64,000 bases of DNA from Isurus oxyrinchus. Taxonomy: Eukaryota. Positions 42,001-45,000 of this stretch are shown here, in pieces; position 1 is the first letter of the stretch; every line of letters starts with the position of its first letter. A program made the position numbers. Location: contig JANJGN010000008.1 of the NCBI GenBank assembly GCA_026770705.1, forward strand, positions 149,110,001-149,174,000. Direction: 5' to 3'.

Positions 42001-45000
42001 GCCTTATTAACCTGCATTGCTGCTTTGTGATTTGTGTAATTGCATTCACTGATCCCTTTGCTCCTGTATCCTGTTTGGATCCCTGTTTTCCAAGTAATAT
42101 GTGATCTAATTTTTCTCAGCAAAATGTAATAACTCCAACTTGCTACATTTTGAAATCCAGTTGCCAGTCATTTGCCCATTCTTCATGTTGATTAAACCTT
42201 CTTGTACTTGCTTGGAATCCTTCTTAGTGTTGACTTTCCTTCCAAATTTGCTGCTGCCTGCAAATTTAGAAATTGTTCTTTGATTCCAAAATCTAAATTG
42301 TTAATATAATATATGAATATCGGTGGCCCCAGCACTGATTCTTGTGGAACCCAACTTCCCACTTCCCCTACTCCAATTAGGTACCCTTTACCCCAACTCT
42401 TTGCTTTCTGTCCTGTAGCCAGCGAGCTACCCATTCTGCTAACTGTCCCCAGCTTGGCATACTCTGACCTTATTTATTAGTCTATTATGTGGCACCTTAT
42501 AATTTTTGTCTTAGTGATGGCTTTGTCATTTTTTTTCTACCACCATTGTTATTTCTAATGAGTGCAGCTACTCCACCTTCTCTTTATACTCTCTATCTTT
42601 GCAAATTTGTTATACCCTGCAATGTTTAATTCTTGCTTCTAATATCTGTATAGTCACATCTCAGTAATCCTGACTATATCATATTCCTTGCAATGTATTA
42701 TTGTCTCCAGTTCCCTTGTTTTATTACAGATGTTGTGTGCACTGTTGTTCAGGCAGTTCTACTCATTTTCAATAGCAGTTTTTCTCACTTTATTTTTAAC
42801 CATCATTTTACATTCCTGCTTCATAACAATTTATTCCTTGTTCATTTTTGGTCCTCCTTTATTTTAGTCTGACTTATGCTAAAACTCCTCTTCTGTTCTT
42901 CAGGATTTCCTGGAAGTGCAAAAGACGCCACTCGCACCAGCTTTGGATTATCCAATAAAGCATCCTTTGGACTGGGAGCTGATGCCTCCTTTTCATACAA
43001 GGGCCCGAGGTCCAGTTCTAGCTCTGCTTTTGCATCTGAGTCTGCGACTACAGCAGGCAGCATCTGCCCTTCTAACACTTCATGTACAGAACTGCAGCCA
43101 TCTGGCAAGCCAAGTGCAACTGGGGCACCTCCTGAACCTGCTATCCCTGCAGCAGCTAGCAAAACCGAAGACCAACAGCCCAGACTTGAACACCAGCCAG
43201 CCAAACCAGAGACTCGCACTTCCACAGCTGAGATTTACCCGTCAAAAGCCGAGATCCCGCCGCAGCCCAAGGCCGAGATCCCGCCGCAGCCCAAGGCCGA
43301 GATCCCGCCGCAGCCCAAGGCCGAGGCCCCGCCGCAACCCAAGGCCGAGGCCCCGCCGCAGCCCAAGGCCGAGGCCCCGCCGCAGCCCAAGGCCGAGGCC
43401 CCGCCGCAGCCCAGGGCCGAGGCCCCGCCGCAGCCCAGGGCCGAGGCCCCGCCGCAACCCAGGGCCGAGGCCCCGCCGCAGCCCAGGGCCGAGGCCCCGC
43501 CGCAGCCCAGGGCCGAGGCCCCGCCGCAGCCCAGGGCCGAGGCCCCGCCGCAGCCCAGGGCCGAGGCCCCGCCGCAGCCCAGGGCCGAGGCCCCGCCGCA
43601 GCCCAGGGCCGAGGCCCCGCCGCAGCCCAGGGCCGAGGCCCCGCCGCAGCCCAGGGCCGAGGCCCCGCCGCAGCCCAGGGCCGAGGCCCCGCCGCAGCCC
43701 AGGGCCGAGGCCCCGCCGCAGCCCAGGGCCGAGGCCCCGCCGCAGCCCAGGGCCGAGGCCCCGCCGCAGCCCAGGGCCGAGGCCCCGCCGCAGCCCAGGG
43801 CCGAGGCCCCGCCGCAGCCCAAGGCCGAGGCCCCGCCGCAACCCAAGGCCGAGGCCCCGCCGCAACCCAAGGCCGAGGCCCCGCCGCAGGACGAAACAGG
43901 AGTCTTTGAGGGTAGTGCCAGAGGTGTCACAATTGGCAGTTTCTCTGGACTTGTTGTCAGTCAGACTGATGATGCCACCAAGTTGGACAGATCTTCACAG
44001 GATAGTTTCACCTTTGCACAAACAGCCAAAACGTCAACAGCACCTCCTACAAGCTTGGCCTTTGGGAGTGCTTTTCCATTGGGAAAGTCAGGTTCCACAG
44101 GGATAACATCAGCTTCAATTGACACAGGTGCACCCAAACCAACTGGAGTACCATTTCCCATTATTTCCAGAGCCAGCACAGAAACCTCCATTTCAAGTAG
44201 CAGTTTACAATCAAGAGCTAGCAAACTTGATTTTGTTTCGAAGCAAGAGCAGACTGCCAATGCCGAACAGATTGCTGCAGCTATCGCTGCCGTAAGCGCT
44301 TTGCAAGATTCGTCCCTCGCCGGATCATTGACCTCCATCACTTCCTCAATCGCTGATGCCGTAAAGCCATCCACTGCTGAAGAGAAGAAGGCAGTTGTAA
44401 GTAGCAGCTCGTCTGCCTCCAGTGTAACTGAGGAACAGGCTGCGGCGCAGGGATCGAAAGTATTGGTATCAAGATCCTCAGAAGGTAGTGCAGGAATCAG
44501 TTCTGCAACACCTACCTCCCCTGGCACTCCAGTTATACCAAGAGTGATAATTAATTCACCAGTACCTTCCATTACAGGGTCATCTGTTGCAACTGAGATC
44601 CCCTTTCCTTATTCTGTGTCATTGAGCAATATTATGCCCTCAGGCAGCAGCATAATTTCCTCCGTTTCGCCTTTTGGAGCGAGTCAAACGCACGTGCAGT
44701 CATCTCCATCCCAATCTGAGTCCACCACGTCCCCGTTTAGTCATGCTGTGGTCACGAGTGCGCCACCAGCGTTTGGGCAGCCTGCGACAACAACCTCACC
44801 ATCCACCCTTGGGCGAGGCACAAATGGCATCACCTCCCCTCCTGTCGTCGACATCCCCAGCTCCGCAGGTAGTCTTGCGAAGCCCACCTTTGGTCAGACG
44901 GTTGACACAGGCTTTGGGCAGCAGTCCTCCAGCAACGGGTTCAGCTTCAGGCAGCCCGTATTTGGATCCACTTCATCCTTTGCTCAGCCCACTTCTGCCG

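What the first reader, a model, noticed from the sequence alone, without database searches (positions are those of the whole stretch)
43248..43889. In-frame 24-bp minisatellite adds a 214-aa Pro-rich octapeptide array to NUP214
Seen: 26.75 near-perfect units encoding AE(A/I)PPQP(R/K) within the large exon. The Lys units sit on both edges and 17 Arg units in the centre, and a degenerate proto-unit (AEIYPSK, 43227-43247) lies just upstream. That pattern suggests recent expansion from the centre by unequal crossover or slippage. Knowledge: mammalian NUP214, as I recall it, has no such array; this region is the disordered linker between the NUP88/NUP62-binding coiled coil and the CRM1-binding FG domain. 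Inference: a charge-balanced, polyproline-II-like spacer could lengthen the reach of the FG domain, and it is probably a length-polymorphic coding VNTR in an essential nucleoporin.
Basis: partly seen in the sequence, partly recalled or inferred. Interest (0 to 1): 0.72.

Follow-up and report, generated by a model that had tools for sequence, protein, structure and literature searches.

The report
Shark NUP214 proline-rich coding repeat array
A shark's nuclear-pore gene NUP214 carries an in-frame run of about 27 copies of an eight-residue proline-rich unit, one local version of a fast-changing repeat block that sharks and a ray have at this spot and other vertebrates lack.

Summary
A 24-bp repeat of 26.75 units lies at 43248-43889 and reads AE(A/I)PPQP(K/R) in frame inside one 2310-bp exon. 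The gene is NUP214: the exon's non-repeat part is 99% identical to the NCBI great white shark protein.

No array is seen in 15 of 15 chimaera and bony-vertebrate proteins examined. It is not a recent lamnid novelty, though. In 9 of 10 elasmobranch species, 221-426 residues lie between the two anchors at this site, with strong periodicity of 8, 9 or 13 residues. Heterodontus has 2-3 units.

The last unit aligns with a single-copy K-x-E-A-P-P-S-K motif present in other jawed vertebrates, so the array is an amplified ancestral motif.

Turnover is fast. The reference white shark has 24 full units, all Lys-type. The window has 26 full units, 17 of them Arg-type, although the flanks differ at only 7 of 555 residues.

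Best reading: a translated, disordered, FG-free spacer that evolves by slippage or unequal exchange. Polymorphism within a species and any functional effect remain untested.

The parts
42904..45213 (+). Large NUP214 exon (2310 bp) holding the array. It encodes about 769 residues with no Pfam domain.
   Evidence: AG acceptor at 42902-42903 and GTAAGA donor at 45214. Open frame 42873-45464. One tblastn alignment to residues 1126-1880 of Carcharodon NUP214 P0004. Pfam finds 0 families.
42936..42977 (+). Upstream anchor TSFGLSNKASFGLG with two FG motifs. It is conserved in cartilaginous fishes and recognisable in bony vertebrates.
   Evidence: FG at residues 13 and 21 of P0001.
43227..43247 (+). 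It is conserved as a flank in other sharks.
43248..43319 (+). Units 1-3, AEIPPQPK (Ile, Lys type).
43320..43391 (+). Units 4-6, AEAPPQPK (Ala, Lys type). Unit 4 has the synonymous CAA.
43392..43799 (+). Units 7-23, AEAPPQPR core. 16 of the 17 are identical in DNA, and units 10-23 are a perfect 336-bp run.
43800..43871 (+). Units 24-26, AEAPPQPK at the 3' edge. Two of them carry CAA.
43872..43889 (+). Terminal partial unit AEAPPQ. Together with the preceding Lys it aligns with the single-copy K-x-E-A-P-P-S-K motif of other jawed vertebrates.
43923..43958 (+). Downstream anchor [12 protein letters not shown]. The G(S/N)FSGL core is present in all 25 jawed-vertebrate sequences aligned.
   Evidence: invariant columns 340-351 of P0001.
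41144..41209 (+). Preceding NUP214 exon (...FRFTPPSTSSLSALSTKAQG).
   Evidence: tblastn.
52210..52278 (+). Following NUP214 exon (FG-rich, 23 residues, 100% identical to P0004).
   Evidence: tblastn.

Best explanation
The array is a translated part of NUP214 in a lamnid shark. It forms a 214-residue, FG-free, proline-rich (37% Pro), nearly neutral polyampholyte segment. It lies 11 residues upstream of the conserved [10 protein letters not shown] motif, after the first two FG motifs of the same exon (residues 13 and 21) and before the FG-dense tail. It arose by tandem amplification of a short motif (K-x-E-A-P-P-S-K) that is single-copy in chimaera and bony vertebrates. An array at this site is common to sharks and a ray. 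It is continually rebuilt by replication slippage or unequal exchange, so each lineage has its own unit and period while the block stays roughly 200-400 residues long.

What is shown: the repeat anatomy, the coding frame, the gene identity, the taxonomic spread, the homology to the seed motif, and the rapid turnover between close relatives.

What is inferred: that the block acts as a passive, extended, disordered spacer lengthening the tether between the anchored part of NUP214 and its FG-dense tail, and that length and composition rather than sequence are what is maintained.
For: Anatomy and frame.

Gene identity: the exon's 441 non-repeat C-terminal residues are 99% identical to NCBI NUP214 of Carcharodon carcharias. 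Exons for residues about 713-1953 map in order on the + strand.

Likely translated: the public gene models of all 10 elasmobranch species keep the array in the protein. The array contains 0 GT dinucleotides, so it has no canonical splice donor inside.

Taxonomic spread, residues between the two anchors: window 306, Carcharodon 290, Cetorhinus 390, Mustelus 339, Hemiscyllium 296, Chiloscyllium 233 and 260, Rhincodon 333, Heptranchias 221, Narcine 426. The best self-match lags are 8, 9 or 13 residues. By contrast, Callorhinchus has 66 residues and 12 bony vertebrates have 42-64, with no periodicity.

Seed motif: the terminal unit aligns with KTEAPPSK (Polyodon), KMETPPSK (Gavialis), KLETPPSK (Dasypus) and similar motifs.

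Turnover: window units run 3 Ile-Lys, 3 Ala-Lys, 17 Ala-Arg, 3 Ala-Lys. Carcharodon has 2 Ile-Lys and 22 Ala-Lys with 0 Arg. Cetorhinus has 39 units with 25 AEAPPQPR. Non-repeat residues of this exon differ from Carcharodon at only 7 of 555 positions.

Disorder: 98.6% of residues are disorder-promoting, the fraction of charged residues is 0.25, and net charge per residue is -0.005. Pfam finds no family. AlphaFold2 with a 10-row alignment gives mean pLDDT 40, no secondary structure, and block means of about 51-57 across the array.

FG-free position: 0 FG in the array; in P0004 there are 4 FG motifs upstream, 2 of them just before the array in the same exon, and 33 downstream.
Against: There are no RNA or peptide data for this species, so translation rests on public gene predictions and on the frame.

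Heterodontus francisci has only 2-3 units (103 residues between anchors). A long array is therefore either dispensable or collapsed in that partial 1262-residue model.

Chimaera and all bony vertebrates examined manage with one copy, so a long spacer is not needed for NUP214 function in general.

Net charge is not conserved (about 0 in lamniforms, -20 to -28 in orectolobiforms), which weakens any claim of a tuned physical property.

A low pLDDT is only a proxy for disorder. A single origin with concerted evolution cannot be told from repeated amplification of the same seed using protein data alone.
Confidence: 0.5

Rival explanations
1. Neutral passenger. The array is translated but has no selected role. 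The site is a slippage-prone coding minisatellite in a disordered region that tolerates any length, and its persistence reflects mutational dynamics alone.
For: The sequence, period and net charge of the units are not conserved between orders. Heterodontus has only 2-3 units. Chimaera and bony vertebrates lack the array. The array has an extreme composition typical of a self-propagating repeat: GC 84.6% and GC3 98%, against 39-44% GC3 in the flanks.
Against: In 9 of 10 elasmobranch species, spanning five orders, the block stays within about a two-fold range (221-426 residues) although the units have been replaced. All versions remain Pro-rich and Glu-rich.
Confidence: 0.3
2. Multivalent binding array. 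Each unit is a copy of a functional short linear motif, and amplification raises avidity for a partner that reads the ancestral K-x-E-A-P-P-S-K motif. A proline-recognition domain is one candidate.
For: The seed motif is conserved as a single copy next to the invariant GSFSGL block across jawed vertebrates, which suggests it is itself functional. Every lamnid unit contains a P-P-Q-P (PxxP) core. That PxxP is the core of SH3 ligands is recalled, not tested here.
Against: Unit sequences diverge strongly between orders (PEVAPLETR, SEVAPSESR, KPQEEGPPLPPAS). The PxxP core is lost in the orectolobiform units, which fits poorly with a conserved partner. By my reading, the basic residue is not spaced as in the recalled class I or II SH3 consensus. 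No partner was tested.
Confidence: 0.1
3. Artefact or non-coding. The array is an assembly expansion, or it is removed from the mRNA.
For: A 336-bp run of perfect 24-bp copies is hard to assemble from short reads. No reads or transcripts could be examined here.
Against: Independent public models of two other lamniforms carry arrays of similar size (24.75 and about 39 units), and seven further elasmobranch species carry arrays at the same site. The period is a multiple of three, and the frame is kept into the conserved downstream sequence. There is no GT inside the array.
Confidence: 0.04

Closest known systems
NUP214 of other jawed vertebrates (beta-propeller, coiled-coil and FG-repeat architecture; passage in section 3.2 of PMC12468270)
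   Same: It is the same gene. The exon order and flanking sequence match public NUP214. The closest public protein has PF16755 at 38-395 and PF18617 at 1949-2011. The GSFSGL anchor is shared.
   Different: At the site where chimaera and bony vertebrates have one K-x-E-A-P-P-S-K motif, 221-426 residues of periodic sequence lie between the anchors here.
Charged, non-cohesive 'stalk' blocks of di-block FG nucleoporins ('trees' of the Forest model; abstract of PMC5222603)
   Same: It is an FG-free, charged, disordered block placed between the anchored part of the protein and its FG-dense region.
   Different: The Forest model was described for yeast nucleoporins. Here the block is a near-perfect minisatellite with 25% charged residues and 37% proline, and its conformation has not been measured.
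Coding minisatellites and VNTRs in disordered protein regions, such as mucin-type exonic repeats and salivary proline-rich proteins (PMC9417175, PMC13637037, PMC12776774; only the titles and abstract starts in the listing were seen)
   Same: In-frame tandem units that are homogeneous in the centre and variant at the edges, with copy number and unit type differing between close relatives.
   Different: The host is an essential nuclear-pore protein. Variation within a species has not been shown.
C-terminal octapeptide repeat of ribosomal protein eL29 in solved mammalian ribosomes (for example 6d90 chain b)
   Same: It has the same 8-residue period and Ala/Pro/Gln/Lys-rich units. It is the only PDB sequence match to the exon (E = 5.7e-9, with a bias score of 30 of 38 bits).
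   Different: This is a resemblance in composition and period, not homology. The eL29 units are basic and lack Glu.
Titin PEVK and the TonB proline-rich spacer (recalled, not tested)
   Same: Proline-rich segments with alternating acidic and basic residues that are thought to act as extended, flexible spacers.
   Different: The unit length and composition differ (the array has no Val, 24% Ala and 13% Gln). There is no sequence relationship.

Membership tests
NUP214 (orthologue) | High identity and collinear exons with annotated NUP214. | tested here: met
   99% identity over 441 residues to Carcharodon NUP214. Exons for residues about 713-1953 lie in order on the + strand.
NUP214 (orthologue) | N-terminal NUP159/214 beta-propeller (PF16755) and C-terminal Nup214_FG domain (PF18617). 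| not testable with these tools
   Both are present in the closest public protein P0004. The window starts at about residue 713, and its last mapped exon ends at about residue 1953, so neither domain is fully inside the window.
Coding minisatellite / VNTR | Head-to-tail units of 10-100 bp, with a period divisible by three, inside an exon and in frame. | tested here: met
Coding minisatellite / VNTR | Copy number varies between individuals of one species. | not testable with these tools
   Only a comparison with a very close relative is available: 26.75 against 24.75 units, with different unit types. The flanks differ at 7 of 555 residues, and I count about 6 further internal substitutions in other exons. 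This looks like another species rather than another allele.
FG-nucleoporin stalk / extended-coil block (Forest model) | FG-free and charged, lying between the anchor domain and the FG-dense region. | tested here: met
   0 FG in 214 residues and a charged fraction of 0.25. In P0004 there are 4 FG motifs upstream (2 just before the array in the same exon) and 33 after.
FG-nucleoporin stalk / extended-coil block (Forest model) | Extended, non-cohesive conformation. | tested here: inconclusive
   AlphaFold2 gives pLDDT block means of about 51-57 over the array, a mean of 40 overall, and no secondary structure. This is compatible with disorder but does not measure chain dimensions.
Titin PEVK-type repeat | Repeats of about 28 residues dominated by P, E, V and K (recalled definition). 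| tested here: not met
   The unit is 8 residues with no Val. P+E+K+R makes up 62%, Ala 24% and Gln 13%. The array may work like such a spacer but is not a member.
SH3-type PxxP ligand array | A PxxP core with a basic residue at the class I or II spacing (recalled consensus), and a binding partner. | tested here: inconclusive
   The P-P-Q-P core is present in every lamnid unit. By my reading, the basic residue directly follows the core rather than being spaced. The orectolobiform units lack the core. Binding was not tested.

The most novel reading that the evidence does not exclude
Elasmobranch NUP214 carries a selectively maintained stalk module of 200-400 residues, built and rebuilt from an ancestral single motif beside the invariant GSFSGL block. 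Its length is held while its sequence turns over rapidly, with unit periods of 8, 9 and 13 residues. That would be a lineage-wide change in the reach of the cytoplasmic FG domain. It would also offer a natural length series for testing how tether length affects nuclear-pore transport.
Probability: 0.3. Interest if true: 0.5.

Novelty: new variant of a known kind. Interest (0 to 1): 0.36.

Why it matters
If the block is functional, sharks and rays provide a natural series of NUP214 tethers that differ in length, period and charge at one fixed site. That series could be used to test how spacer length and charge set the reach of a cytoplasmic FG domain.

It is also a clean case of a conserved single motif turning into a coding minisatellite in an essential gene. 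Unit replacement between relatives is very fast even though the flanks differ by about 1%.

In practice the array is a likely source of assembly and annotation error, and a candidate length marker for lamniform sharks. If it is only a tolerated passenger, it is an ordinary coding repeat in a disordered region.

Tried and rejected
Pfam on the exon found 0 families.

Rfam at gathering thresholds found 0 matches in the window.

The protein atlas search with the array gave a best feature score of 0.79 to unnamed bacterial clusters, below the tool's own threshold for a lead. I treat it as uninformative.

The PDB sequence search returned only eL29 tail repeats, with high composition bias. I treat this as analogy, not homology.

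Widening the elasmobranch sample failed.
- The representative search gave 6 hits, none of them a new elasmobranch.
- The 'near'-length word search gave 3 hits, of which only Heterodontus was useful.
- No skate, squalid or scyliorhinid protein was available, and the only teleost examined was Scleropages.

Two links to elasmobranch biology were considered and rejected.
- Urea-rich body fluids: I recall that chimaeras and coelacanths are also ureosmotic, yet Callorhinchus and Latimeria lack the array.
- Very large genomes: Ambystoma and Pleurodeles lack it.

GC-biased conversion was considered as the driver of the Arg (AGG) core. It fits the window and Cetorhinus but not Carcharodon, whose units are all Lys.

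Literature searches found no description of the array.
- 'NUP214' + 'shark': 17 papers, of which the 15 listed had no relevant title or abstract start.
- 'nucleoporin' + 'coding minisatellite': 1 paper, on PRDM9.
- 'nucleoporin' + 'elasmobranch' + 'tandem repeat': 1 paper, whose only nucleoporin mention is NUP210.
- 'Nup214', 'tandem repeat', 'proline-rich' and 'lineage-specific': 88 papers held at least 3 of the 4 terms, and none of the 10 listed concerned this array.

No complex prediction was run, because no binding claim is made.

Full report
**1.
Tandem Repeats Finder gives one array at 43248-43889 with period 24, 26.8 copies, 98% matches and no indels. Cutting it into units gives 26 full copies and an 18-bp partial copy. 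In order they are 3 AEIPPQPK, 3 AEAPPQPK, 17 AEAPPQPR, 3 AEAPPQPK and AEAPPQ. Of the 26 full units, 16 are identical in DNA, and units 10-23 form a perfect 336-bp run.

The consensus unit with up to 3 mismatches occurs 26 times, all within the array, and never in 100 shuffles. The 7-residue AEIYPSK lies at 43227-43247. The window has no N.

**2. The array is coding sequence of NUP214.**
It lies in an open frame at 42873-45464. The exon inside that frame runs 42904-45213, between an AG acceptor and a GTAAGA donor. The frame of the array is the frame of the conserved flanks.

The 441 residues after the array are 99% identical to the NCBI protein 'nuclear pore complex protein Nup214 [Carcharodon carcharias]' (P0004, 2117 aa). 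They are 88% identical to the basking shark protein. A tblastn of P0004 against the window places exons for residues about 713-1953 in order on the + strand, with the large exon in one piece.

P0004 has the NUP159/214 beta-propeller at 38-395 and the Nup214_FG domain at 1949-2011. The exon itself matches no Pfam family.

All searches with window sequence used translations of this one exon (P0001-P0003), and the one full-length query was the public protein P0004. The window is shark sequence, not human.

**3. Which animal.**
In the large exon, 7 of 555 non-repeat residues differ from P0004 (4 of 114 and 3 of 441). Against the basking shark, 62 of 554 aligned positions differ. I read about six further internal substitutions in the other exons. 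This is a very close relative of the reference white shark, probably another lamnid rather than another allele. I did not try to identify it further.

**4. The array is not a lamnid novelty.**
I examined 10 elasmobranch proteins from 10 species. A second Chiloscyllium punctatum model, P0009, was left out; its position relative to the two anchors matches that of P0010. I also examined Callorhinchus and 14 bony vertebrates that I chose from the 120 rows listed to span the classes. The other listed tetrapod rows, including all primates, were not examined. The unnamed rows P0038 and P0062 were not used.

Residues between an upstream FG anchor and the downstream GSFSGL motif:

| Species | Residues |
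|---|---|
| Window | 306 |
| Carcharodon | 290 |
| Cetorhinus | 390 |
| Mustelus | 339 |
| Hemiscyllium | 296 |
| Chiloscyllium (two species) | 233 and 260 |
| Rhincodon | 333 |
| Heptranchias | 221 |
| Narcine | 426 |
| Heterodontus | 103 |
| Callorhinchus | 66 |
| 12 bony vertebrates | 42-64 |

For opossum and armadillo the upstream anchor was not found, so their figures are unreliable. Neither shows periodicity.

The arrays have lineage-specific units:
- AEAPPQP(K/R) in lamniforms
- PEAPPQPR in Mustelus
- PEVAPLETR in the hemiscylliids
- SEVAP(S/P)ESR in the whale shark
- PEAPPQQSR and an 11-residue form in Heptranchias
- a 13-residue KPQEEGPPLPPAS in Narcine

Heterodontus has only 2-3 units, in a partial 1262-residue model.

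**5. The seed.**
I aligned the 34 residues before the GSFSGL motif, the motif and the 10 after it in 25 sequences. The last Lys plus the partial unit (KAEAPPQ) falls on a single-copy motif in every non-elasmobranch. Examples are KTEAPPSK (paddlefish, sturgeon), KPEAQPSK (gar), KSEAQPFK (coelacanth), KMETPPSK (gharial), KLETPPSK (armadillo) and KPDTQKPK (Callorhinchus).

The array is therefore an amplification of an old conserved motif that sits just upstream of the invariant G(V/E)T(I/L)GSFSGL block.

**6. Turnover is fast.**
The white shark protein has AEIYPSK, then 2 Ile-Lys units and 22 Ala-Lys units, and no Arg unit. The window has 17 Arg units. The basking shark has 39 units, with 25 AEAPPQPR and a heterogeneous 5' part that contains a duplicated block of several units.

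Unit number and type thus differ between genomes whose flanks are about 99% identical. A homogeneous centre with variant edges is what established models of unequal exchange in tandem arrays predict (recalled).

**7. DNA properties.**
- The array is 84.6% G+C with 98% GC3, against 39-44% GC3 in the flanks of the same exon.
- It holds 81 CpG (observed/expected 0.73, against 0.28 for the window).
- It uses CCG for 54 of 80 Pro codons, against 3 of 53 in the flanks.
- It contains no GT dinucleotide, so no canonical donor can lie inside it.
- An intron using an upstream donor and one of the 76 AG sites cannot be excluded without transcripts.

**8. What the segment is like as protein.**
The composition is Pro 80, Ala 51, Glu 27, Gln 27, Arg 17, Lys 9 and Ile 3. 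The charged fraction is 0.25 and net charge per residue is -0.005. Disorder-promoting residues make up 98.6%, and there is no FG motif.

In P0004, FG motifs lie at 1139 and 1147 just before the array, and 33 lie after it. AlphaFold2 with a 10-row alignment gives mean pLDDT 40, no residue at or above 70, no secondary structure, and block means of 51-57 over the array.

My estimates are a contour length of about 66 nm as polyproline II and roughly 13 nm end to end as an expanded coil. These are arithmetic from recalled constants, not measurements.

**9. Reading.**
I take the block to be a passive disordered spacer in front of the FG-dense tail. It resembles the charged stalk of di-block FG nucleoporins in the Forest model (abstract of PMC5222603).

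The three-domain layout of NUP214 is taken from a passage in section 3.2 of PMC12468270. I did not test coiled-coil boundaries.

In favour of maintenance, 9 of 10 elasmobranch species keep 221-426 residues although the units have been replaced. Against it stand the short Heterodontus form, the absence of the array in chimaera and bony vertebrates, and the unconserved net charge (about 0 to -28).

The rivals are a neutral passenger, a multivalent motif array, and an artefact.

**10. Limits.**
- No reads, transcripts or populations could be examined.
- No shark DNA other than the window was available.
- Paper supplements were not consulted.
- Protein databases gave no further elasmobranchs.
- The literature searches found no description of this array. 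They cover only the open-access library.

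Noticed in passing
window 63300-64000: A C/T-rich satellite runs off the window end. It has about 17 copies of a 22-bp unit, then 13 copies of a related 26-bp unit sharing the core GTCGCGCTCTC (TRF scores 774 and 626). It lies downstream of the last mapped NUP214 exon.
   Followed up: partly
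window 43923-43958 ([12 protein letters not shown]): The G(S/N)FSGL block just after the array is present in all 25 jawed-vertebrate NUP214 sequences aligned, and it is invariant among the cartilaginous fishes. It is a strongly conserved short motif inside an otherwise disordered region, and I know of no function for it.
   Followed up: partly
window 43248-43889: The array forms a CpG-rich island inside the gene body (81 CpG, observed/expected 0.73 against 0.28 for the window). It has 53 runs of three or more C on the coding strand, which are G-runs on the other strand, so G-quadruplex or i-motif structures are conceivable.
   Followed up: partly
P0005 (Cetorhinus maximus NUP214), residues about 1230-1300: The 5' part of the basking shark array shows a higher-order duplication: the unit series [30 protein letters not shown] occurs twice. 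It also includes 6-residue units.
   Followed up: no
P0061 (Heterodontus francisci, 1262 aa): The N-terminal part of this 'Nup214-like' model does not resemble NUP214 and may be translated intron. The model carries only 2-3 repeat units, so its short array needs checking.
   Followed up: no
window 29885-29977: Three copies of a 31-bp C-rich unit lie in an intron (TRF score 144).
   Followed up: no
window 14001-18000: There is a strong positive GC skew (0.16 to 0.33) in intronic sequence, compared with about 0 elsewhere in the window.
   Followed up: no
PDB eL29 chains (for example 6d90_b): The tail of mammalian ribosomal protein eL29 has an 8-residue Ala/Gln/Lys/Pro repeat with the same period as the shark array. 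It is the only PDB sequence match.
   Followed up: partly
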